A stretch of 56,874 nucleotides of DNA. Source: Parcubacteria group bacterium (GTDB taxonomy: Bacteria > Patescibacteriota > Minisyncoccia > Phycocordibacterales > CALRBT01). Location: assembly GCA_943354475.1 (NCBI GenBank), contig CALRBT010000004.1, positions 1 through 56,874 of the forward strand. Reading direction: 5' to 3'. The notes below the pieces were generated by a model, which worked only from the letters and a program-made list of their open reading frames with translations, was not told the DNA's origin and ran no database searches. The position numbers were made by a program, and so were the translations under genes. Shown one piece after another: positions 3,978-51,659 of the stretch; position 1 is the stretch's first letter; the number at the start of each line of letters is the position of its first letter.

Positions 3978-4358
3978 ATGGCAGTAGCAGTAAAAGAAAA
4001 AGCGCCAAAAAAAGCAGCAAAAGCTGTTTCTAAACCGAAGGATAAAGAGGCGGTATCCAAATTGCGCATCAGAGTTCGTGCCTATGAACACAAGATTCTT
4101 GACCAGTCGGTTAAGCAGATTATGGACACAGCACTTCGCTATGACGCAGAGGTAGTTGGTCCGATTCCGCTCCCTACGGAGATTAAGAAATATACCGTCA
4201 ATCGTTCAGCTTTCGTCTTCAAAAATGCGCGAGAACAATTTGAGATGAGAATACATAAACGAGTGATTGATATCTTGAACCCTAATGCCAAAGTGATTGA
4301 AGCGCTAACTAATCTTAGTCTTCCATCAGGTGTGAGTATTGAGGTGAAAATGGGATAA
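3978..4358 (+). CDS. rpsJ: 30S ribosomal protein S10 with Lys/Ala-rich N-terminal extension
   Basis: LRIRVRAYEH, GPIPLPT and HKRVIDI motifs. Confidence 0.97.
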   Translation: MAVAVKEKAPKKAAKAVSKPKDKEAVSKLRIRVRAYEHKILDQSVKQIMDTALRYDAEVVGPIPLPTEIKKYTVNRSAFVFKNAREQFEMRIHKRVIDILNPNAKVIEALTNLSLPSGVSIEVKMG

Positions 4359-36341: not shown

Positions 36342-36372
36342 AAAAATTGCCCGCAAAAAGCGGGCTGATTTT
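36342..36372 (-). terminator. Hairpin, probably the original tmRNA terminator displaced by island integration
   Basis: gcccgc-N5-gcgggc stem with a minus-strand T-tract, directly outside the ATGTGGA core at 36378. Confidence 0.55.
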
Positions 36373-36630
36373 TAAAAATGTGGACATATCTAGTAAAACA
36401 TTGAACCACTTTAAAACCTATATTACTCGGTTTTGGGAGTTCCATAAATCAAGCCCCGCTCTGCAAAATGCCCTTGAGGGTGTTGGTTAAAGCTTTCAGC
36501 AAGGGTCACAATCCTAGTATAGAACTAAGTATTAGTAGCGAGCAGTGCGCAGGTTTACGTTTACTCGCGCTCAACCCACCTTGCCAATCTTTGACAATAC
36601 TTGCCACAGTACGTTACTCTTCTCTTAACT

Positions 36631-36819
36631 ATGAGTGAAAATACATATCGCGTTGGAGAAGTCGCCAAAAAGCTCAACGTGAGTGTCCGTTCGGTGTTTC
36701 GGTATATTCACGATGAAAAGTTGAGAGCGACTAAAATTGGTTACTGGCGTGTTGATGAAAATGACCTCAAATCCTTTGTTATTGGAAGAACCAACGTAGG
36801 AAAGCCAATGAAAAAATGA
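36631..36819 (+). CDS. Small helix-turn-helix DNA-binding protein (excisionase/MerR-like)
   Basis: YRVGEVAKKLNVSVRSVFRYIHDEKLRATKIG-WRV pattern; ATG 36631; overlaps the hsdM start. Confidence 0.75.
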   Translation: MSENTYRVGEVAKKLNVSVRSVFRYIHDEKLRATKIGYWRVDENDLKSFVIGRTNVGKPMKK

Positions 36820-38270
36820 AAACTAAAGCTAAACCACAACCAACGAAAGATGCGCTCACCAAATCAGACATCAAGCGTGTCTGCGATATATTGCGTCGTG
36901 ATGATGGGGTCGGGGCAAAGGACTACATTGAGCAGTTTTCTTGGCTTCTTTTCTTGAAGGTCTTTGAGGGTGTAGAGGGTCAACTCAAGGAACTTGAAGA
37001 AGCGGAGGGAAGGAAGTACAAAGCCGTCATTGATACGGAATACCAATGGTCATCGTGGGCTAAAAAGGATTGGAAAGACAAAGACGAACTGGTTCACTTC
37101 ATAAATCAAAAGCTATTCCCTTATCTCAAGGCACTCAAAGGAACACGCGAGAGGGATAAAATCGGGGAGATTTTCCGTGAGCTTTCTGGCAACCGTATCC
37201 GTTCGCCCCACAACCTCCTTGATGTCATCGGCATTTTGGACAAGATAGAGAAACATCACTTTCAAGACACAAACTTACTCTCACAGGTCTACGAAGAAAT
37301 ACTACAAGCTATGGGTAGTGAGGGTGGTTGGTCGGGAGAGTTCTACACCCCACGCCCCATCATTCGTTTGATGGTCAAAATCGTTGACCCTAAACTCGGA
37401 GAAACTATCTTTGACCCGTTCGTCGGTTCAGGCGGTTTTTTGGTGGAAAGTTTCAATCAACTGTACGAAAAGTCAGCAAAAGATGTGAAAGCGTGGCGTA
37501 CACTTCAAACAAAAACATTTTTCGGACAGGAAAAGAAACCACTACCTTTTCTTATCGGTACAATGAACCTCATCTTGCACCATATTCTCGTCCCAAACAT
37601 CGTACGCTCTAATACGTTTATGGAAGACGTACACAATATGCCAGAGAGTGCCAAAATGGACGTGATTTTGACCAACCCACCTTTTGGAGCAGAAGAAAGT
37701 AAAGACGTTCAGAACAACTACCCTATACAAATAGGAGCTACTGAAGGTCTTGCACTTCAGTACATTATGAAGCGTCTCAAAAATGGTGGGCGCTGTGCCG
37801 TTATTCTTCCAGAAGGAAACGTACTTTTTGGTGGTGGAGCTATGGCTCGTATCCGACAGGAACTTTTGGAAAAGTTCAATGTGCATACAATCATTTCACT
37901 TCCACAAGGAGCATTCGCACAAATGGGTGCTGGTGTAAAAACAAATCTCATCTTTTTTGATAAGACGGGCTCAACAAAAGAAATCTGGTACGGTGAAGTA
38001 AGGGGAAAGTTTACAAAAAAGAAAACAATGCAGGACGGTAGCTTTGACGCGATTTTTGATAAGTGGAAGAAACGAGAGGTATCTGATAGTTCTTGGGTAG
38101 TTCCCGTGGAAACTATCAAACAACGTGGCTACGATATTTCTCCCAAAAATCCCACACTGGCTGATGCTGACGTGCTTCTTTCGCCAGACGCAATACTAGG
38201 AGAAATAGAGAAAAATCAACACGAGATTGATAACGTACTTCTATCATTGAAAGAGATACTCAAAAAATGA
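36816..38270 (+). CDS. hsdM: Type I restriction-modification methyltransferase subunit M
   Basis: GEFYTPR, FDPFVGSGGFL (motif I) and NPPF (motif IV, m6A). Confidence 0.93.
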   Translation: MKTKAKPQPTKDALTKSDIKRVCDILRRDDGVGAKDYIEQFSWLLFLKVFEGVEGQLKELEEAEGRKYKAVIDTEYQWSSWAKKDWKDKDELVHFINQKLFPYLKALKGTRERDKIGEIFRELSGNRIRSPHNLLDVIGILDKIEKHHFQDTNLLSQVYEEILQAMGSEGGWSGEFYTPRPIIRLMVKIVDPKLGETIFDPFVGSGGFLVESFNQLYEKSAKDVKAWRTLQTKTFFGQEKKPLPFLIGTMNLILHHILVPNIVRSNTFMEDVHNMPESAKMDVILTNPPFGAEESKDVQNNYPIQIGATEGLALQYIMKRLKNGGRCAVILPEGNVLFGGGAMARIRQELLEKFNVHTIISLPQGAFAQMGAGVKTNLIFFDKTGSTKEIWYGEVRGKFTKKKTMQDGSFDAIFDKWKKREVSDSSWVVPVETIKQRGYDISPKNPTLADADVLLSPDAILGEIEKNQHEIDNVLLSLKEILKK

Positions 38271-39487
38271 TTATGGAATTGAAAAAACTACAACTAGGCG
38301 AAATCTGCAACATCTCTGGTGGTTTTGGCTTCCCTCATTCACATCAAGGACGCAAAAATGAGAAATACCCATTTTACAAAGTAGGTGATATGAACACAGG
38401 CGGAAATGAAACGTATATGATTACGCACAATCATTCTGTTTCCGAAGGTGATATCAAAGCACTCAAGGCAAAAATCTTTCCTGCTGGTACAATCATTTTT
38501 CCAAAGATTGGAGCGGCTATTGCAACAAATAAGAAACGTATTTTGAGCACCCCATCAACAGTTGATAATAACGTAATGGTTCTCATTCCCAACGAGGAAA
38601 TGGTAACCACTAAATACCTTTTTTATTTCCTTCAGGACTTTGACCTAAAGGATTGGTCAAATAAATCCGCGTTACCATCAATCAGAAAAAGTGATGTTGA
38701 GAAAACAGAAATACGGTTACCGTTTACAGATGGAAAACCAGACCTTGCCGAGCAAAAACGTATTACTGACAAGTTGGATAAGGTTTTTATGGAGATTGAA
38801 AAGAGTATTGATAAAATCAGACAGAACAGAAAGTATGCAGGTAAAACTACCTATTCAGAGCTTCTGACTACTTTTAGCGATGAAAACTTGAAAACATACT
38901 CCCTTGAAGAAGTTTGCGATACAACAAGTGGAGGCACTCCATCTCGTTCTAACAGTGCTTATTATGACGGCGACATTTCGTGGTTGAAATCTGGTGAACT
39001 GAACGACAATCGCTCAATATCATCTTCAGAGGAGCATATTTCGGAGGACGCAATAAAAAAATCTAATGCAAAAGTATTCCCATCGGGTACGGTTCTTTTG
39101 GCTATGTACGGTGCGACTGTCGGCAAGTTAGGTATTTTGAGTGCAAGTGCTTCTACCAATCAAGCTGTTTGTGCAATAACTCCCCACAAAAACATTTTGA
39201 ATGAGTATATGTTTTGGTACTTATTTTTCTATCGTGATGAGTTAGTCAAAAAAGCGTTTGGTGGTGCACAGCCAAACATCAGTCAAACGCTCATTCGCAA
39301 ACTTCCAGTAAAAATACCCCTAAAAGATAAACAGCCAGACCTAGCCAAACAAAAAGAGATTGTTGCAAAAGTAAGTTCTATTCAAGAGAAGCAGGAAATG
39401 CTAACGGACTTGTTTTCCCGACAAGAAAAGTTATTTACATCACTTCGCTCGTCAGTATTGAGCCAATCGTTCCAAATGCAAACATAA
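38267..39487 (+). CDS. hsdS: Type I restriction-modification specificity subunit S
   Basis: Two TRD-like halves, each followed by a helical P...Q..I spacer (LAEQKRI, LAKQKEI). Confidence 0.9.
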   Translation: MIMELKKLQLGEICNISGGFGFPHSHQGRKNEKYPFYKVGDMNTGGNETYMITHNHSVSEGDIKALKAKIFPAGTIIFPKIGAAIATNKKRILSTPSTVDNNVMVLIPNEEMVTTKYLFYFLQDFDLKDWSNKSALPSIRKSDVEKTEIRLPFTDGKPDLAEQKRITDKLDKVFMEIEKSIDKIRQNRKYAGKTTYSELLTTFSDENLKTYSLEEVCDTTSGGTPSRSNSAYYDGDISWLKSGELNDNRSISSSEEHISEDAIKKSNAKVFPSGTVLLAMYGATVGKLGILSASASTNQAVCAITPHKNILNEYMFWYLFFYRDELVKKAFGGAQPNISQTLIRKLPVKIPLKDKQPDLAKQKEIVAKVSSIQEKQEMLTDLFSRQEKLFTSLRSSVLSQSFQMQT

Positions 39488-39492
39488 AATAT

Positions 39493-41949
39493 ATGCCATA
39501 TTCAGAAGACGATACAAGGGTCAAAATCATAGACCCACAAATACACGAGAGCGGTTGGAAAGAGGAACAAATCCTCCGACAATATGCTATTGCCGATGAC
39601 CGCTTCTTTGTAGAGGGCGAGGACTTCAAGCGTCTTCCTACTGCAAAGTTTGCTGATTATGTTTTGCTGTACAACAACGTTTCTATTGCCGTACTTGAAG
39701 CAAAGGCAGAAGACGAAGACCCTCTCAAACATTTGAGCCAAGCACAGGACTACGCAAAGCGTCTTGATGTGCCTTTTGCCTATATCTCAAACGGCAAAAC
39801 AACTTATCTTTACGACCGCCGAACATTGAAGACGGAAGAAGTATCAAGCTACCTTTCACCTGAAGAAATGTACGAGGCGTACAAAGAGTGGAAAGGATTG
39901 AGCGAGCAGAAACTAGACGCTCTCACATATCCGCTTTATGTTGCAGGTACAAAGCGTCCGCGTGCGTATCAAGAAACAGCAATAAAAAATACTGTTGAGA
40001 ACGTCGTCAAAGGAAAGAAGACCACCCTCCTTACGATGGCGACTGGTACAGGTAAAACATTCACGGCATTTCAGATTGTTTGGAAACTTGTGAAGTCAAA
40101 GCATATACATCGCGTGCTTTTCCTCTGCGACCGCATCATTCTCCGCGATGACGCATACAGCAGAGATTTTGAACCATTTGGTGAGGCGCGTTGCAAAATT
40201 GAGGGCGGTGAGTTCAATGCCAACCGCGATATCTACTTTGCAACATATCAAACCCTTTTCACTAATGACTTATACAAACAAATACCAGCCGATTTCTTTG
40301 ACCTGATTATTATTGATGAGTGTCATCGTTCTCGCTATGGCGACTGGGGTGAGGTATTGGAACATTTCCAATCTGCACAGCAACTCGGAATGACCGCTAC
40401 GCCAAAGCGTGAGGACAACATTGATGTATACGAATACTTTGGCGAGCCAGTATTTGAGTATTCTCTCGGACAAGCGATTGAAGACGGCTATCTCGTGCCG
40501 TACAAAATCTTCAAAATATCAACCAACCTCTATAAAGAAGGGCTAGACATCTCTTCGGCTGAAGAAGTTATTTACGATGACGAGATAGAGCCAGAAAAAA
40601 TAAAGGATTTCTATGAGCCATCAGAGTATGAGCGAGCCGTTACTATCCCTGAACAAATAGACCTACTGTCAAAGAAAGTGATTGAGGTGCTAGATAAAAC
40701 GAACCAATACGGCAAAACGATTATCTTCTGCGTGGATATGGCACACGCACAAGCAGTCAAAGACAAACTCAACGAGTTGAAAGGAAACGAGGATTATGCC
40801 TCACGTGTCGTAGCCGAAGACAAAGACGACCTTACAAAGTTCCGAGACAAAGAACGTGTGATGCCTGTTGTTGCTACAACCGTAGACCTTCTCTCAACTG
40901 GCGTAGATATTCCACACATTGAAAATATCGTCTTTATGCGCCCCATCGCCTCACGAGTATTGTTCAAGCAAATTATCGGGCGTGGCTCTCGTCTCTTTGA
41001 GGGTAAGGGCTTCTTTAGGATTGTTGACTTCACCAATGCAACACGCCTTATTGATGAATGGGATATTCCTACTGAAAAACCAGAACCGCCAGAGCCACCC
41101 GAAGAACCAATCGCACCGTACGACAAACTTGTTATGGGTATTGTGGTGGACAACAAAATGGAAGCCCCTGTCGTAAGTGCAATCGTAAAAGCGAAACTGG
41201 GACGCTGGGAAAAAATGGGCAAAACCGATGAAAACGGAATGTTCAAGCTCTTTGGCTTGCCATCAAACGACAAGGTAAGTATCAGCATTGAACACGCGGA
41301 GTATAAGAAGTTGAACAAGAAACTTGCGCCACATAAAACTGAAGACGAGACCCCGTACGAGTTTCGCTTGAAAGCGTGGAAGTCCGCACCGAAGAAAATC
41401 ACCGTCAAAGGTATTGTCGTTACGATTGATGAGGAAGTGGAGGTTGAGTTTGACGGTATGAAGCTATCGTATGCAGAGTACCGAAAATACTCAAAAGATA
41501 AGATTGCCGAAACAATCCATTCTTCGGATGAGCTTCGCGCTATCTGGCTAGACCCAGAAAAAAGAGAGAAGTTTATCGCTGACCTTGAAGCGATGAAAGT
41601 AAACATCACACTCATCAAGTCCATTGAGAACCTTGAAGACGTGGACGCTTTTGACATCGTGGCTCACATTGCTTTTGACGCTCCGCTACTAACTCGTGAA
41701 GACCGCGTAAAGCACTTTATGAGGCACAACGCGAAGAACATAGACCAGTACGGCAAGGAGATTGGCGAGGCAATCCGCGAGATTATGGAGAAGTACAAGA
41801 ACAGTGGCGAGGAAAATCTCTCCGCGCAGGCGTTTCTACTTCCGAATATGAATGCAAAGAAGGAGGCAATCCAGCAGAAATACCCAGAAGGTCTATATGG
41901 CTTCATGCACTCGCTTAAATCAAAGATTTACGCCGTTATGGCCTCATAA
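39493..41949 (+). CDS. hsdR: Type I restriction endonuclease subunit R (EcoEI-like) with an extra inserted domain
   Basis: ADY...VLEAK nuclease motif; MATGTGKT, IIDECHR, MTATP and QIIGRGSR helicase motifs. Confidence 0.92.
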   Translation: MPYSEDDTRVKIIDPQIHESGWKEEQILRQYAIADDRFFVEGEDFKRLPTAKFADYVLLYNNVSIAVLEAKAEDEDPLKHLSQAQDYAKRLDVPFAYISNGKTTYLYDRRTLKTEEVSSYLSPEEMYEAYKEWKGLSEQKLDALTYPLYVAGTKRPRAYQETAIKNTVENVVKGKKTTLLTMATGTGKTFTAFQIVWKLVKSKHIHRVLFLCDRIILRDDAYSRDFEPFGEARCKIEGGEFNANRDIYFATYQTLFTNDLYKQIPADFFDLIIIDECHRSRYGDWGEVLEHFQSAQQLGMTATPKREDNIDVYEYFGEPVFEYSLGQAIEDGYLVPYKIFKISTNLYKEGLDISSAEEVIYDDEIEPEKIKDFYEPSEYERAVTIPEQIDLLSKKVIEVLDKTNQYGKTIIFCVDMAHAQAVKDKLNELKGNEDYASRVVAEDKDDLTKFRDKERVMPVVATTVDLLSTGVDIPHIENIVFMRPIASRVLFKQIIGRGSRLFEGKGFFRIVDFTNATRLIDEWDIPTEKPEPPEPPEEPIAPYDKLVMGIVVDNKMEAPVVSAIVKAKLGRWEKMGKTDENGMFKLFGLPSNDKVSISIEHAEYKKLNKKLAPHKTEDETPYEFRLKAWKSAPKKITVKGIVVTIDEEVEVEFDGMKLSYAEYRKYSKDKIAETIHSSDELRAIWLDPEKREKFIADLEAMKVNITLIKSIENLEDVDAFDIVAHIAFDAPLLTREDRVKHFMRHNAKNIDQYGKEIGEAIREIMEKYKNSGEENLSAQAFLLPNMNAKKEAIQQKYPEGLYGFMHSLKSKIYAVMAS

Positions 41950-41969
41950 TAGGCCTTCCGTAGAAATAT

Positions 41970-42863
41970 TTGTCGGGAATTTTGAGCGGAAGAAGAGGTA
42001 AAAATGGGGATAACCACATTGTCCCAAAGCTTACATGCATGTATACTTTACGCATGCCTAATGCGCCCAAATTTGTACCCAATCTGTTCAGGAGCGATGC
42101 TTTCTTTATCGGGCTCTCAAAGTATGAAGAACCATTGCTCAAGCCATTTCACGATATGGTGAGAAGCCGTATCCACACCGTAGGCGATACTGCCATTACC
42201 TACCGAGTTATTAACCACTGGGCACAGAAAAATCTTCTGCCAGAGGGTTGTAAAAACTCAAATGGTACGTGGCACAAATTCACTACCGTGGAGCTTGCTT
42301 GGTTGCGTGTAGTTGTTCGCTTGAGGAAGTTGGGTCTATCGCTAGAAAAAATTGCCTCAGCAACAGAGCAGGTAATGCGTTGGGATAATAGGAGCCAATC
42401 CTACCCAATCTTTGAATACTGTCTTGCCTTGGCATTGGCAAGCTCCAATGACCCCTATGTAATTTTTCTATCAGACGGAACTGCCGATGTAGCGACTTCA
42501 AAAGATATTGAGGGTGCAAAAATTATTGCTGGGTCGCGAGACATGTCGCTGGTTTCTCTAAAATCAATCTTGTCTGAGCTGGGCTTTACTCCTGTTAATC
42601 CCGCTCCGCTCATCTCCCTTGAGCGAAATGAGGCTGTCCTTATCAGCAAGGCAAGGAGCGGTGTTAATAGTGAAATTACGGCTCACATAAAGGAGGGCAG
42701 GGTCGGTAATATTAGGAGAACAGTTTCCTACAGAGAGAACCCCTCGCTGGATGACATAAAGAAGGGCTTCAAGGAAAATGGCGGCTTTGGAGAAATCTTA
42801 CTCAAAGTGTCAGGGGGCGTAGTGCAATCTGCCGTTGTAAACCACCATGAACGCCTTTCTTAA
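41970..42863 (+). CDS. MerR-family helix-turn-helix protein
   Basis: TYRVINHWAQKNLLP...FTTVEL...LRKLGLSLEKI; true start uncertain (ATG 42039 or 42057 possible). Confidence 0.65.
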   Translation: MSGILSGRRGKNGDNHIVPKLTCMYTLRMPNAPKFVPNLFRSDAFFIGLSKYEEPLLKPFHDMVRSRIHTVGDTAITYRVINHWAQKNLLPEGCKNSNGTWHKFTTVELAWLRVVVRLRKLGLSLEKIASATEQVMRWDNRSQSYPIFEYCLALALASSNDPYVIFLSDGTADVATSKDIEGAKIIAGSRDMSLVSLKSILSELGFTPVNPAPLISLERNEAVLISKARSGVNSEITAHIKEGRVGNIRRTVSYRENPSLDDIKKGFKENGGFGEILLKVSGGVVQSAVVNHHERLS

Positions 42864-42955
42864 CCCTGCTATCAGCCTTAATGGCTGGGGCATTTATGAA
42901 TACGTCATTGCTATCAGAAAAGCATCTGGGGCACATCACACAGCTATGAAATACA

Positions 42956-43114
42956 ATGATTTCAGTTTCAGAGTACCGAAAGGTACTCAAAGACGACGAG
43001 AGCCCAGACGAGATTATACAGCGTCGTATAGCCTATTTAGAGGCCTTCTGCCGCAGTGTGGCGCGTATTGAACTACAAGCGTATGTCAAAGTCATCAAAA
43101 ATGAAACAGCATAG
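42956..43114 (+). CDS. 52-aa ORF overlapping the recombinase start (below the ORF-track cut-off)
   Basis: Translates as MISVSEYRKVLKDDESPDEIIQRRIAYLEAFCRSVARIELQAYVKVIKNETA; protein-like helical composition. Confidence 0.5.
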   Translation: MISVSEYRKVLKDDESPDEIIQRRIAYLEAFCRSVARIELQAYVKVIKNETA

Positions 43115-44741
43115 TCCGCCACAGTCACTTCAAGAGCTGAAAAGCTCGGGCGTTACGATTTACGGCCTTATTTATTGCAGAGTTTCGTCCGATAGACAGG
43201 CCACCGAGGGTCACGGCTTGGAAAGTCAGGAGCAACGTTGCCGTGAATACGCAAAACTAAACGGGTTCATCGTTGATAAAGTTTTTGCCGATAGCGCCTC
43301 AGGGGGTGGAGAATACACTTCACGAAAAAAACAGGTGGCACTACTTGAGTATGTAAAAGCGCACCCCAACAAAGTTTTCGTGGTCATAATTGACGATATT
43401 TCTCGTTTTGCGAGAGATGTGCAAGGTCACACACAGTTCAAGCTGCTTCTAAGGGAGCAGGGCGTAGAACTTACTTCTCCAAATTTTAATTTTGAAAATA
43501 GTCCCGAGGGGCAACTGATTGAAACCGTGATGGCTTCGGTAAGCCAGTATCATCGTACAGGAAATGCTCGCCAAGTTATCCAAAAACAGCTTGCTCGCAT
43601 GAACCTTGGCTGTTGGCCGTTTGCCTCAGTGCGCCCATTTAAAATGATGAAAGATGCAAACTATGGAAAAATTCTTACAGCGCAGTATCCCGACGTTGAA
43701 TATGCTAAAGAAGCCTTGGAGCGGTTCGCTAATGGCGAATTTCTTACGAAGGCTGATGCGTGCAGATTTCTCGCGGGAAAAGGCTATTGGAGGGACAACA
43801 GGCGCCCTGAAAAACATATTGATGCATTTACCTACTTGGCTAAGAGTATTCTAAACGCAGGGTGGGTAGAGTATACAAAGTGGGGTTTCAAGCCAATTGA
43901 GGGAAAGCACAAGGGCTTTATCTCTATGGAAACTTACGAAAAGGTTCAGAAGCGCCTAAAACGTGAGGGGTTAAGTAATCGTATACGTAAAGATATTCAC
44001 CCTGATTTCTTCGCTCGCGGTCTAGTTCTGTGCGATGGTTGCTCGTACCCATTCAGGGGAGCGTACTCAAGGGGTAGGACAAAACGCTATCCGTACTATG
44101 TCTGCCAAACACACGGGTGCCAATTTTATGGAAAATCAATTCGTAAAGATATTCTTGAAGGCCAATTCAAACAGCTACTTTCTGAAACCGCGTTGAAGGA
44201 AGATGTCGGCGACCTCGTTAGTATAATGTTTGACCGCGTTTGGAAAGATGAGGTTATCAATGTGAAAACTAATGAAGCCATTGTTGCTTCGCACAAATCA
44301 TCGCTTGAACATAAGCTAGAACAGCTTACAGAGGCCGTGTTTGGTGCAAAATCGCCTGCACTGAAAAAGATATATGAAAGCCAAATGGAAAGACTTGCAA
44401 AGGAGCTTGATAGCCCCGACCTTGCAAGCGTCGGGGAAATAGACTTCTCTGTACCTTATAGAACCGCTCTAGATAAAGCCAAGGGATTGCTAAAAAGCCC
44501 TTTAGAATATTGGGAAAAACTAGATGTACGTGAACAACATCGTCTTTTTTACTTCATCTTTGATGAGAAATTACCCTACACACCGAACGTTGGGTATAGA
44601 ACCGACAAAATACGAACAGCCATAAGGCTTTTTGAGAGCTTTGTGGCTGTAAGTTCTACTGATGTGGAGATGGGCGGAGTCGAACCGCCGTGCGGGAAAG
44701 TAGCTAGAATGCATCTACCGTGTGTAGCAGATTTGATTTAG
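43083..44741 (+). CDS. Large serine recombinase (integrase)
   Basis: Catalytic YCRVSS and DDISRFAR motifs; recombinase domain; zinc ribbon CDGC...YYVC...GC; coiled coil. Start is ATG 43083 or 43101. The last 24 codons are read from antisense tmRNA. Confidence 0.9.
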   Translation: MSKSSKMKQHSPPQSLQELKSSGVTIYGLIYCRVSSDRQATEGHGLESQEQRCREYAKLNGFIVDKVFADSASGGGEYTSRKKQVALLEYVKAHPNKVFVVIIDDISRFARDVQGHTQFKLLLREQGVELTSPNFNFENSPEGQLIETVMASVSQYHRTGNARQVIQKQLARMNLGCWPFASVRPFKMMKDANYGKILTAQYPDVEYAKEALERFANGEFLTKADACRFLAGKGYWRDNRRPEKHIDAFTYLAKSILNAGWVEYTKWGFKPIEGKHKGFISMETYEKVQKRLKREGLSNRIRKDIHPDFFARGLVLCDGCSYPFRGAYSRGRTKRYPYYVCQTHGCQFYGKSIRKDILEGQFKQLLSETALKEDVGDLVSIMFDRVWKDEVINVKTNEAIVASHKSSLEHKLEQLTEAVFGAKSPALKKIYESQMERLAKELDSPDLASVGEIDFSVPYRTALDKAKGLLKSPLEYWEKLDVREQHRLFYFIFDEKLPYTPNVGYRTDKIRTAIRLFESFVAVSSTDVEMGGVEPPCGKVARMHLPCVADLI

Positions 44742-45181
44742 GACTTGCGAATTTGACACATTTCGTCGTTGCTTCGCTCATTTGCTCCCGCAGAGTAGAT
44801 TCACCTACACTTTGGTCACAAGCCTCACTCGCGCCTAGAACTGTATCCAAATTCGCAAGTCCTGTTTAGAAATATTACGTAGAGAATATGCAAAACCGTA
44901 ATATGTCGATTCTCTTTATTTTGAATTACTCGCGAGAAACTGAGTAATTCTAGTTCCATTTTATTACACCCGATTCAACCTATGAAACTTCAGTTGATCG
45001 AACGCCACTTAGGCTAAAGCGTAAGTGGAAGCAAAGGTATTTCCCGTAAAGTACGGAGAAGCTACCGATTTTGCTTTTGAAAGTACGTTTGCACGTAGCT
45101 TGTTAAGCGTTTTTTAGGAAGGACGCTCACTTCCACACGGCACATAAAAGACTAATTTTCCTGTCGATGCCTGGCATCCCC
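44665..45181 (-). ncRNA. ssrA: tmRNA (about 517 nt, containing a palindromic insertion)
   Basis: 5' GGGGAUG pairs with 3' CAUCUCC-A giving G3:U70; T-arm GGCGG-UUCGACU-CCGCC; pk1 ggaag/cttcc and agcgt/acgct; tag ORF 45092-45009 = ANVLSKAKSVASPYFTGNTFASTYALA; next to smpB. Confidence 0.92.
44740..44863 (-). repeat. Palindromic repeat family, copy D (inside tmRNA)
   Basis: Perfect 16-bp arms aggacttgcgaatttg / caaattcgcaagtcct; core shared with copies B and E. Confidence 0.85.
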
Positions 45182-45182
45182 A

Positions 45183-45629
45183 TTATCTAGTTTTCAACGT
45201 TCGCTCAATTTCACGCTTGGAATCTCGTTTCTTAATCACTTCGCGTTTATCGTACTTTTTACGGCCGCGGGCAATTCCAATCTCAAGCTTCAATTTTGCC
45301 CCCTTATTATACACCGAAATTGGCACAATTGTCAATCCTCTCTGTTGCTCAGTTCCAGCCAATACTGCTAGTTCTTTGCGATTAAGAAGTAGTCTTCTGT
45401 TTCGGAGCGGATCGTAGCCCTTTGGAGCATTTGCTTGCTGGTAGGGAGGAATATTGGCGTTGATTAAGTAAGCTTCGCCCCCTCGTATGGTGACGTGGGA
45501 GCCATCGAGTGACCCAAGGTGGTTTCGCAAGGATTTTACTTCAAACCCAAAAAGCTCCATTCCGGCTTCAAACCGTTCCAGAATTTCATAGTTTAAATTT
45601 GCTTTCTTGTAGCTAACTAAGGCTTGCAT
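45183..45629 (-). CDS. smpB: SsrA-binding protein
   Basis: EAGMELFGFEVKSLR, PLRNRRLLL and RGRKKYDKR motifs; true start ATG 45629. Confidence 0.96.
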   Translation of the reverse strand: MQALVSYKKANLNYEILERFEAGMELFGFEVKSLRNHLGSLDGSHVTIRGGEAYLINANIPPYQQANAPKGYDPLRNRRLLLNRKELAVLAGTEQQRGLTIVPISVYNKGAKLKLEIGIARGRKKYDKREVIKKRDSKREIERTLKTR

Positions 45630-45751
45630 AATATGGTCAGTGTAGCATTTTTGAGCTTTAATTTGCATCCTTTTGATCTTATTTTTTCTTTAGAAAACGA
45701 GGTTCAAATTACCTAGCCATATTCCTAGCTTTGTGTATAATGTGCCTACTT

Positions 45752-51561: not shown

Positions 51562-51635
51562 CCACCCTTAGCTCAGTTGGTTAGAGCACAGAGCTTATAC
51601 CTCTGCGGTCCTTGGTTCGAGTCCAAGAGGGTGGA
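51562..51635 (+). tRNA. tRNA-Ile, anticodon UAU
   Basis: Acceptor CCACCCT/AGGGTGG plus discriminator A; D-arm GCTC/GAGC; anticodon stem CAGAG/CTCTG with loop CT-TAT-AC; T-arm CTTGG-TTCGAGT-CCAAG; CCA not encoded. Confidence 0.92.
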
Positions 51636-51659
51636 CTAAAATGTTTAAGTAGCGGAAGG

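What the first reader, a model, noticed from the sequence alone, without database searches (positions are those of the whole stretch)
44640..44741. Attachment site inside the integrase ORF: excision swaps the enzyme's own C-terminal tail
Seen: the recombinase frame crosses the core at ...SSTDV. In the integrated state it continues EMGGVEPPCGKVARMHLPCVADLI-stop, encoded by antisense tmRNA (44667-44741). In the excised circle the same frame continues into the other end of the island and stays open for 35 codons: DISSKTLNHFKTYITRFWEFHKSSPALQNALEGVG-stop (36383-36490). Established: attP-in-gene tail switching controls repressor stability in some mycobacteriophages (integration-dependent immunity). 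Inference: here the integrase itself would have state-specific isoforms, giving a self-sensing switch for directionality, activity or proteolysis. This is the strongest candidate for an undescribed mechanism in the window.
Basis: partly seen in the sequence, partly recalled or inferred. Interest (0 to 1): 0.82.

Follow-up and report, generated by a model that had tools for sequence, protein, structure and literature searches.

The report
Integrase gene split by its own integration
An 8.3-kb mobile island sits at the last bases of the tmRNA gene, and its serine integrase gene spans its own attachment site, so integration detaches a family-conserved 35-residue tail that only excision rejoins.

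Summary
ORF 43083-44741 (+) is an intact large serine integrase. It crosses a GTGGA core (44664-44668) and ends after 24 codons read antisense through the tmRNA gene (minus strand, 44662-45181). The same core lies at 36380-36384, next to the native ssrA terminator, and is followed in frame by 35 codons (36383-36490).

That far-end segment is not a chance open frame. A profile of homologues' tails, built without the window, hits it at E=1.4e-13. Eighteen orphan tails in 16 other integrated islands, and about 60 further metagenomic clusters, carry the same segment, nearly all behind an in-frame GTGGA. Conserved residues use many synonymous codons, and the stop position is conserved.

The family targets the shared acceptor end of tmRNA and tRNA-Ala. 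A GAAC motif sits 5 bp further out in attP than in attB.

State-specific integrase isoforms are therefore real at the sequence level. Their functional difference is inferred, not shown.

The idea is not wholly undescribed. Phage Mx8 IntP/IntX (a tyrosine integrase) does this. McMurdie 2011 noted and speculated the same for Dehalococcoides DsiB.

Verdict: a new variant of a known kind, interest about 0.6.

The parts
36349..36365 (-). Native ssrA terminator hairpin (GCCCGC TTTTT GCGGGC plus a T-run), now 8.3 kb away from the tmRNA gene
   Evidence: Terminator scan. It lies 14 nt 3' of the left core copy on the tmRNA strand. Analogous hairpins precede the core in L033, L055 and L082.
36378..36384 (+). 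Far-end junction core ATGTGGA (family-invariant part GTGGA at 36380-36384). Host flank lies to the left and element to the right.
   Evidence: GTGGA is invariant at both junction types across loci. The bases 5' of it are host-specific.
36383..36490 (+). Detached 3' segment of the integrase gene: 35 codons plus stop, DISSKTLNHFKTYITRFWEFHKSSPALQNALEGVG. It is joined in frame to the integrase only in the excised circle.
   Evidence: Tail profile built without the window hits it at E=1.4e-13. Alignment A2. Synonymous-codon pattern. About 60 further orphan copies in metagenomes.
36385..36407 (+). P' arm of attP inside tail codons 1-8. The GAAC motif at 36403-36406 lies 19-22 nt after the core.
   Evidence: GAAC is at +19-22 in 31 of 37 P' arms, against +14-17 in 43 of 44 B arms. 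Codons 4-7 are nearly fixed at DNA level.
36601..36819 (+). Small HTH_17, excisionase-family DNA-binding protein (72 aa), a candidate directionality factor or regulator
   Evidence: Pfam PF12728. NCBIfam TIGR01764 'excise', 30.6 bits against a cut-off of 28.8. Also present in L040 but not universal next to the tail.
36816..41949 (+). Cargo: type I restriction-modification system hsdM (36816-38270), hsdS (38267-39487), hsdR (39493-41949)
   Evidence: Pfam N6_Mtase/HsdM_N, Methylase_S, ResIII/EcoEI_R_C/HSDR_N.
41970..42863 (+). MerR-like HTH protein (297 aa) upstream of the integrase. A MerR_1 protein occupies the same position in L031.
   Evidence: Pfam PF13411. L031 gene table.
43083..44741 (+). 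Large serine integrase ORF as it exists in the integrated state (alternative starts GTG 43056 and ATG 43101). The conserved body ends at ...SSTDV (44666).
   Evidence: Pfam Resolvase plus Zn_ribbon_recom. About 890 homologues. All family-invariant residues are present. AF2 and Foldseek match full-length serine integrases.
44662..44668 (+). tmRNA-side junction core ATGTGGA. GTGGA at 44664-44668 is antisense of tmRNA U70-C71-C72-A73-C74. The likely crossover dinucleotide is GG at 44666-44667.
   Evidence: The best dyad centre of the reconstructed attP and attB falls between the two G.
44667..44741 (+). Integrated-state tail: 24 codons plus stop (EMGGVEPPCGKVARMHLPCVADLI) read antisense through the tmRNA acceptor and T arm. 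The GAAC of the B arm is at 44682-44685.
   Evidence: AF2 pLDDT is 31-37 with no secondary structure. The equivalent tails of homologues follow the target RNA gene and vary in length.
44662..45181 (-). tmRNA gene (ssrA), the integration target. smpB lies directly upstream (45183-45668, minus strand).
   Evidence: Rfam RF00023, 86.4 bits. SmpB Pfam hit.

Best explanation
SHOWN.
- Window 36380-44668 is an 8.3-kb integrative island.
- It carries a type I restriction-modification system, two HTH proteins and a large serine integrase.
- It is inserted at the acceptor end of the tmRNA gene.
- The attachment site attP lies inside the integrase gene, in a short linker after the last conserved helix (...RLFESFVAVSSTDV).
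- Strand exchange occurs within GTGGA. This is antisense of U70-C74 of the alanine-type acceptor end, and the crossover is probably the GG.
- Integration therefore cuts the gene 35 codons before its stop. It leaves those codons 8.3 kb away at the other island end and fuses the body to 24 codons of antisense tmRNA.
- Excision rejoins the body and the true tail in frame.
- The detached tail is a family-conserved helical module (consensus ..K.LN.LK.YLSRFW.YYQSSP.LQKAL) under protein-level purifying selection.
- The antisense-RNA tail is unselected and predicted to be disordered.

INFERRED.
- The tail is translated only from the circle, or from tandem arrays. Selection on it must therefore act in that state.
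- The full-length enzyme is thus most likely the form needed for attP x attB integration, or for stability and regulation while the element is free.
- The integrated element can make only a tail-swapped enzyme. That enzyme is either attenuated, which would lock the island in, or is the form used for attL x attR excision, perhaps with the HTH_17 or MerR-like protein.
- Integration also removes the ssrA terminator. Read-through from ssrA probably runs antisense into the integrase gene and may dampen it.

My confidence in the anatomy is about 0.95. My confidence in a functionally meaningful isoform difference is about 0.55.
For: - Anatomy.
- Tail homology: a 7-sequence tail profile without the window hits window 36344-36487 at E=1.4e-13. 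It also hits orphan tails upstream of the integrase, on the same strand, in 16 further integrated loci. There was no minus-strand hit below E=0.3.
- All but two orphan tails (L058, which lacks the core, and frame-shifted L053) sit in frame behind GTGGA[C/G].
- Homologues with the joined form end ...DVD plus the same 33-aa tail: P0082, P0091, P0098, P0100, P0103 and P0112.
- A search of 1.84 billion cluster representatives found 80 clusters carrying the tail. About 60 are small orphan ORFs. The distance from the FW motif to the stop is 18-19 residues in 50 of 71.
- Coding signature in 18 orphan tails. Identity at codon positions 1/2/3 for codons 9-30 is 0.645/0.75/0.488, and median dN/dS is 0.36. 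Arg15 uses 6 codons from both codon families, Leu26 uses 5, Ser uses both TCN and AGY, and Phe16 and Tyr use both of their codons.
- Serine-integrase logic of the sites. The dyad centre falls on GG. GAAC lies at +14-17 in 43 of 44 B arms and at +19-22 in 31 of 37 P' arms.
- Targets are tmRNA or tRNA-Ala in about 40 loci.
- Structure. In full-length P0112 the tail forms two helices (529-545 and 547-555, pLDDT 52-70), and a linker with pLDDT below 50 falls exactly at the core codons. In the window's integrated form, residues 518-546 have pLDDT 31-37 with no structure.
- The fold matches full-length serine integrases.
Against: - There is no direct evidence that this island excises, or that either isoform is made.
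- None of the joined-form contigs I checked shows a circular overlap.
- At least some joined forms are tandem arrays rather than free circles (L042, L039, L031).
- The tail's confidence in the AF2 model is only moderate, and I could not inspect what it packs against.
- The first 8 tail codons are constrained at DNA level as an att arm. Part of the apparent peptide conservation, including the near-invariant Asn, is therefore not protein selection.
- dN/dS comes from 30 codons with saturated dS.
- The tail may be needed for every reaction. In that case integration simply cripples the enzyme rather than switching it.
Confidence: 0.55

Rival explanations
1. By-product with loss of function. The integrase gene overlaps attP only because the element is compact. 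The tail is needed for folding, DNA binding or synapsis in every reaction. The integrated copy therefore encodes a crippled enzyme. The island would be essentially locked in unless a full-length enzyme is supplied in trans or by a tandem neighbour. There would be no directionality logic.
For: - The tail is conserved and hydrophobic/aromatic, as a structural element would be.
- Tandem arrays that restore a full-length gene exist (L042, L039, L031).
- McMurdie 2011 proposed exactly this alternative for DsiB.
- Decayed copies exist: L053 has a frame-shifted tail and G015 has in-frame stops.
Against: - Seventeen of the 19 orphan tails I inspected in genome loci are intact and in frame behind the core, and about 60 further orphan clusters carry intact tails. 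This is hard to sustain if integration were a dead end.
- The split point falls in a predicted flexible linker after a complete serine-integrase fold. The tail therefore looks like an add-on module, not part of the core.
Confidence: 0.27
2. The far-end segment is conserved as DNA, as an att arm or regulatory site, and not as protein. The open frame would be incidental.
For: Codons 1-8 show no third-position relaxation (identity 0.65/0.54/0.58). AAA-ACA-TTG-AAC is nearly fixed. This region is the P' arm.
Against: - Codons 9-33 lie beyond a normal serine-integrase half-site.
- They show third-position relaxation.
- Conserved Arg, Leu and Ser residues switch between codon families.
- The stop position is conserved.
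- The frame join is correct in all but two loci.
Confidence: 0.03
3. In the integrated state the tail is made on its own as a roughly 35-residue micro-protein, started at the GTG of the core. It would act in trans on the truncated integrase.
For: The invariant core supplies an in-frame GTG in front of nearly every orphan tail. Gene callers often call small ORFs there.
Against: The sequence upstream of the core is host-derived and unconserved. There is no consistent ribosome-binding site, and the window has only ...TGATTTTTAAAAAT before GTG. The called ORFs start at arbitrary upstream positions.
Confidence: 0.05
4. The island ends are misassigned, and the 7-bp repeat and the open frame are coincidences.
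For: Only 7 bp are shared. The repeat finder reports no significant direct repeat.
Against: The tail profile hit (E=1.4e-13), the native terminator next to the left core, and the family-wide identical architecture all fix the ends.
Confidence: 0.01

Closest known systems
Myxophage Mx8 integrase IntP/IntX (tyrosine recombinase)
   Same: attP lies inside the integrase coding sequence. Integration creates a recombinant gene with a new 3' end. [quoted passage not shown] The Islander paper also lists Mx8 and SSV integrases as extending across attP (PMC4383910).
   Different: Mx8 uses a tyrosine recombinase with a different chemistry and different site architecture, and it is a single phage. Here the enzyme is a large serine integrase. 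The detached piece is a short module conserved across a very large family. The replacement tail is antisense tRNA/tmRNA.
Dehalococcoides ssrA genomic islands with the serine recombinase DsiB (McMurdie et al. 2011, PMC3146451)
   Same: A CcrB-like serine recombinase of about 540 aa integrates islands at ssrA. [quoted passage not shown] The authors speculated that it may be fully functional only on the circle, or next to an adjacent island carrying the 3' fragment. Tandem arrays are present.
   Different: - Their crossover is inferred in the T-loop, with a 20-bp ssrA direct repeat. Here it is at U70-C74, with only 5-7 shared bp.
- Their module includes a second small serine recombinase, DsiA, plus RecF, ParB and Mom homologues. 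None of these is in this island.
- They reported divergent C-termini and gave no evidence for a conserved detached tail.
- I did not test whether DsiB is homologous to this family beyond the superfamily level.
Canonical large serine integrases (A118/LI, Bxb1, PhiC31, SPbeta SprA, TP901-1, CcrB)
   Same: The domain order is resolvase, recombinase, zinc ribbon, then coiled coil. The fold matches 9dxf/9dxh, 9iu2, 9rah and 4kis. The att sites are short with a tiny core. A conserved outer motif lies 5 bp further from the centre in attP than in attB. From memory, this corresponds to the zinc-domain motif shift described by Rutherford et al. 2013.
   Different: Known examples keep attP outside the integrase ORF and rely on a separate directionality factor. 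They usually target protein-coding genes. [quoted passage not shown] Here the B' half of attB is unconserved.
Integration-dependent immunity of mycobacteriophage BPs and relatives
   Same: attP lies inside a gene, so the integrated and free genomes encode proteins with different C-termini and different behaviour (PMC4557955).
   Different: There the split gene is the repressor, and the switch concerns proteolytic stability and immunity. Here the split gene is the recombinase itself, and no degron has been shown.

Membership tests
Large serine integrase (large serine recombinase) | N-terminal resolvase-type catalytic domain with the nucleophilic serine | tested here: met
   PF00239 at E=1.8e-20, with the motif YCRVSSDRQ. 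All family-invariant residues are present.
Large serine integrase (large serine recombinase) | C-terminal recombinase domain, zinc ribbon and long coiled-coil insertion | tested here: met
   PF13408. AF2 helices 367-415 and 419-443. Foldseek E=3e-17 to full-length integrase complexes 9dxf/9dxh, and also matches Bxb1, PhiC31 and LI.
Large serine integrase (large serine recombinase) | Short att sites with a central dinucleotide, imperfect dyad symmetry, and an outer motif shifted about 5 bp between attP and attB half-sites | tested here: inconclusive
   There is a 5-bp invariant core, and the best dyad centre falls on GG, though symmetry is weak (0.37 against 0.25 expected). The GAAC shift from +14-17 to +19-22 is clear. 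The crossover itself was not observed.
Large serine integrase (large serine recombinase) | Excision requires a recombination directionality factor | not testable with these tools
   The only candidates are the HTH_17 'excise' protein at 36601-36819 and the MerR-like protein at 41970-42863.
attP-inside-integrase elements of the Mx8 IntP/IntX type | attP core lies within the integrase coding sequence, so integration changes the C-terminus | tested here: met
attP-inside-integrase elements of the Mx8 IntP/IntX type | Tyrosine recombinase | tested here: not met
   The enzyme is a serine recombinase. It works like Mx8 in design but is not a member.
attP-inside-integrase elements of the Mx8 IntP/IntX type | The integrated-state isoform has altered activity | not testable with these tools
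   This needs recombination assays.
Dehalococcoides ssrA-GI integration module (DsiB/DsiA) | A serine recombinase gene overlaps the ssrA-side junction | tested here: met
   compared with PMC3146451.
Dehalococcoides ssrA-GI integration module (DsiB/DsiA) | Crossover in the T-loop with a 20-bp ssrA direct repeat | tested here: not met
   The core here is U70-C74, with 7 bp shared in the window and no longer repeat.
Dehalococcoides ssrA-GI integration module (DsiB/DsiA) | Companion small serine recombinase DsiA plus RecF, ParB and Mom-like genes | tested here: not met
   Pfam scan of the island ORFs finds none of these.
tRNA/tmRNA-targeting genomic islands (Islander-type) | The island lies between an intact tDNA and a displaced tDNA 3' fragment, and uses a tyrosine integrase | tested here: not met
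   Only 5-7 bp of the tDNA are duplicated, and the integrase is a serine recombinase. The target gene and the position at its 3' end are the same as in this class.

The most novel reading that the evidence does not exclude
The DNA state itself encodes directionality for a serine integrase. Only the circle makes the tail-bearing enzyme, which would be specialised for attP x attB. Integration physically removes the tail exon, so the island can make only a tail-less enzyme with different synapsis rules: excision-competent or auto-silenced. In addition, the enzyme would recognise essentially one half-site, the universal T-loop plus the alanine-type U70-C74 acceptor end shared by tmRNA and tRNA-Ala. 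That would give an attB present in almost every bacterium.
Probability: 0.3. Interest if true: 0.85.

Novelty: new variant of a known kind. Interest (0 to 1): 0.62.

Why it matters
How serine integrases choose between integration and excision is a central question in site-specific recombination. It also limits their use as genome-engineering tools.

This is a large natural family: about 890 homologues in one search, from Patescibacteria to Alphaproteobacteria, including cultured strains. In it, a conserved C-terminal module is present only in the free element. Simple assays of full-length against tail-less enzyme on the two substrate pairs would therefore test directly whether gene topology can substitute for, or add to, a directionality factor.

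The family also overturns the older statement that serine integrases do not target tRNA genes. It uses a target, the alanine-type acceptor end plus T-loop, that is conserved across bacteria. That could be useful for broad-host-range integration.

For annotation, the small 'hypothetical' ORFs at island ends and the odd ...VEMGGIEPP... integrase C-termini are explained by this design.

Tried and rejected
- ARAGORN did not find the tmRNA. Rfam did.
- The repeat finder gave no meaningful direct repeat for the island ends. The ends were fixed by homology instead.
- 100 genomes of the same order had no close relative with an empty site.
- A word-based search with only the C-terminal 52 residues of P0112 found nothing but the query. 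The exhaustive profile search replaced it.
- Joined-form contigs L029, L030, L031 and L041 show no terminal overlap, so circularity is unproven.
- I tested whether an excisionase-like gene always follows the tail. It does not, because the next gene is variable cargo.
- No tail of the Patescibacteria type was found within 10 kb in the alphaproteobacterial loci. A proteobacterial-type viral contig does carry an analogous joined tail (L127).
- Literature searches for serine integrases with attP in the ORF returned only McMurdie 2011 and the Mx8 and SSV tyrosine cases.
- Earlier scan notes mention a spare inverted attP copy in some relatives. The window has no minus-strand tail hit.
Full report
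**1. What is in the window**

The window is contig 4 of a 786-kb, 98%-complete genome of the Patescibacteria (CPR) type.

- Rfam places a tmRNA gene on the minus strand at 44662-45181 (86.4 bits). ARAGORN missed it.
- smpB lies directly upstream.
- On the plus strand, ORF 43056/43083-44741 carries a Resolvase domain and a recombinase zinc ribbon. It is a large serine integrase, not a tyrosine integrase.
- The family consensus begins MSK, which favours ATG 43083 as the start.
- Between 36601 and 42863, all on the plus strand, lie an HTH_17 excisionase-family protein, hsdM, hsdS, hsdR and a MerR-like protein.

**2.

The integrase frame reads ...FVAVSSTDV. It then continues EMGGVEPPCGKVARMHLPCVADLI-stop (44667-44741), antisense to the acceptor and T arm of the tmRNA.

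The heptamer ATGTGGA occurs at 44662-44668 and again at 36378-36384. After the second copy the same frame reads DISSKTLNHFKTYITRFWEFHKSSPALQNALEGVG-stop (36383-36490).

Seven shared bases are not significant by themselves, and the repeat finder saw nothing longer. On the tmRNA strand, however, the left copy is followed 14 nt later by a clean hairpin terminator at 36365-36349. That is what the original 3' flank of ssrA should look like.

**3. The far-end segment is the real end of the gene**

About 890 homologues were found. Nearly all end ...LFEEFV..NS.DV[E/D] and then run into sequences such as MGGIEPPC, PTGIEPVTSSLQMRRS or PRGIEPLTS. These are translations of antisense tRNA-like genes, always in the same frame.

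A minority of homologues end instead with DVD plus a 33-residue tail. An example is IAHKSLNPIKSYLSRFWLYYQSSPALQNALANA (P0112). This is plainly homologous to the window's predicted circle tail.

I built a profile from seven such tails, leaving out the window, and searched the six-frame fragments of all fetched loci.

- Window 36344-36487 scored E=1.4e-13.
- Sixteen other integrated loci each had an orphan tail 3-11 kb upstream of the integrase, on the same strand.
- No minus-strand hit was better than E=0.3.

Apart from two exceptions, every orphan tail is preceded in frame by GTGGA[C/G]. The sequence 5' of it is unrelated host DNA, often a terminator or the CCA end (TTGGTGGA). L058 lacks the core and L053 is frame-shifted.

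An exhaustive profile search of 1.84 billion cluster representatives found 80 tail-bearing clusters. About 60 are short ORFs containing only the tail. About a dozen are joined to an integrase body. The distance from the FW motif to the stop codon is 18-19 residues in 50 of 71.

**4. Protein-level or DNA-level conservation?**

Both apply, in different parts of the tail.

- Tail codons 1-8 show no third-position relaxation (identity 0.65/0.54/0.58). AAA-ACA-TTG-AAC is almost fixed.
- Codons 9-30 show identities of 0.645/0.75/0.488.
- In codons 9-30 the conserved residues use many synonymous codons. Arg15 uses six codons from both families. Leu26 uses five. Ser uses both TCN and AGY. Phe16 and Tyr use both of their codons.
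- Median dN/dS is 0.36. This is rough, since the segment is short and dS is near saturation.

So the first roughly 24 nt are an att arm. The remainder is selected as protein, although it is not part of any intact gene while the element is integrated.

**5. The sites behave as serine-integrase sites**

I reconstructed attP and attB for 14 islands, plus five joined forms.

- The best dyad centre falls between the two G of GT-GG-A in both sites.
- The B arm is the antisense T-loop. GAAC lies at +14-17 in 43 of 44 loci.
- In the P' arm GAAC lies at +19-22 in 31 of 37 loci.
- This 5-bp outward shift in attP is the pattern described for zinc-domain motifs of large serine integrases. I cite this from memory (Rutherford et al. 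2013), not from a tool.
- The B' arm, the host DNA beyond the RNA gene, is not conserved.

**6. Target choice**

ARAGORN on the junctions shows that the family sits at tmRNA genes (about 20 loci) or tRNA-Ala genes (about 20 loci), with one tRNA-Tyr.

GTGGA is antisense of U70-C71-C72-A73-C74. This is the alanine-type acceptor end, including the U of the G3:U70 pair, which tmRNA shares with tRNA-Ala.

The closest homologue (74% identity, L032) sits at tRNA-Ala(GGC), whereas the window's enzyme sits at tmRNA.

The family extends to Alphaproteobacteria, including cultured strains, and to viral contigs. One of these (L127) has an analogous joined tail. More distant Patescibacteria members have a second tail type, VD....(S/N)WNQ(I/L)E.Y(I/V)F.

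**7. Structure**

AlphaFold2 of the full-length relative P0112 gives mean pLDDT 85.

- It shows the complete serine-integrase architecture. Foldseek matches 9dxf/9dxh, Bxb1, PhiC31 and LI.
- After the last body helix (507-516, the RLFEGF motif) comes a linker with pLDDT below 50 at 521-523. These are exactly the core codons.
- Two tail helices follow (529-545 and 547-555, pLDDT 52-70).

In the window's integrated form, residues 518-546 have pLDDT 31-37 and no secondary structure. I could not inspect what the tail contacts.

**8. Joined forms are not all free circles**

In L042, L039 and L031 a full-length integrase is followed by a second island that ends at the RNA gene. The inner integrase is therefore fused to its neighbour's tail. 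No joined-form contig showed a circular overlap. Excision of this particular island is therefore not demonstrated.

**9. Mechanism**

Shown by sequence: integration splits the gene and excision restores it.

Inferred: because the tail can be translated only in the joined state, its purifying selection must come from that state. It is most simply needed for integration or for behaviour of the free element. The integrated element makes only a tail-swapped enzyme.

Whether that enzyme is excision-competent (a switch) or merely weakened (a lock) cannot be decided here. I put about 0.55 on a functionally meaningful isoform difference and about 0.27 on plain loss of function.

A second inferred consequence follows from integration moving the ssrA terminator 8.3 kb away. 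No strong terminator follows the tmRNA 3' end inside the island. ssrA read-through would therefore be antisense to the integrase gene.

**10. Prior knowledge**

- Mx8 (tyrosine integrase): attP lies in the integrase gene, and integration gives a new 3' end and modified activity (PMC6070905).
- McMurdie 2011 (PMC3146451): in Dehalococcoides ssrA islands the serine recombinase DsiB always overlaps attL. The authors speculated that it is fully functional only on the circle or beside an island supplying the 3' fragment. They reported a T-loop crossover, a 20-bp repeat and divergent C-termini, not a conserved detached tail.
- Integration-dependent immunity: this splits the repressor gene, not the integrase (PMC4557955).
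- Earlier notes of this scan report the same design in more than 40 other genomes. They are leads, not evidence, and none cites McMurdie 2011.

**11. Verdict**

This is a new variant of a known kind: a serine-integrase version of the Mx8 principle, with a family-wide conserved detachable tail and an alanine-acceptor-end target. Interest is 0.62.

Noticed in passing
window 44738-44868: A palindromic insert of about 125 nt with terminal inverted repeats (GGACTTGCGAATTTG...CAAATTCGCAAGTCC) sits inside the tmRNA gene. It makes the gene 520 nt long and probably explains why ARAGORN missed it. Nine further copies (73-92% identity) occur in the genome. The integrase's integrated-state stop codon (44739-44741) lies at its edge.
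   Followed up: partly
window 45306-45335 (minus strand): A perfect sigma-70 consensus, TTGACA-18-TATAAT, lies inside the 3' part of smpB, about 120 nt upstream of the tmRNA 5' end. It is a likely ssrA promoter.
   Followed up: no
window 51562-51636: A tRNA-Ile with a genomically encoded UAU anticodon (ARAGORN and Rfam).
   Followed up: no
L042 2977-11536; L039 4184-11563; L031 214-6626; L037 2948-11498: Tandem arrays of related islands at one RNA gene. The inner integrase is fused in frame to the tail of the neighbouring island, so it regains a heterologous full-length C-terminus. L037 has two orphan tails about 960 nt apart.
   Followed up: partly
L071, L076, L080, L083, L084, L086, L096, L102, L108 (Alphaproteobacteria); L113-L117 (viral contigs): Homologues at 32-37% identity in Alphaproteobacteria, including cultured Roseovarius, Nitratireductor and Rhodovulum, also end inside tRNA-Ala (...VEPRGIEPLTS...). 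Their far-end tails were not found within 10 kb.
   Followed up: partly
L054, L059, L070, L077, L088, L098, L101, L107, L110, L111: A second type of detached tail, VD....(S/N)WNQ(I/L)E.Y(I/V)F.., lies behind an in-frame GTGGA in more distant family members. L085 and L091 (Peregrinibacteria) share a longer 45-aa candidate tail.
   Followed up: partly
L053 about 4010-4116; G015:C3:83995-85525: Decayed copies. The L053 orphan tail is out of frame with its core. The G015 homologue has in-frame stop codons.
   Followed up: no
window 36380-44668 and L029-L046: Cargo of these small islands is mostly defence-type: type I R-M here, and a DNA methylase with SocA_Panacea, HicA, KAP NTPase and DUF87 ATPases elsewhere.
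   Followed up: no
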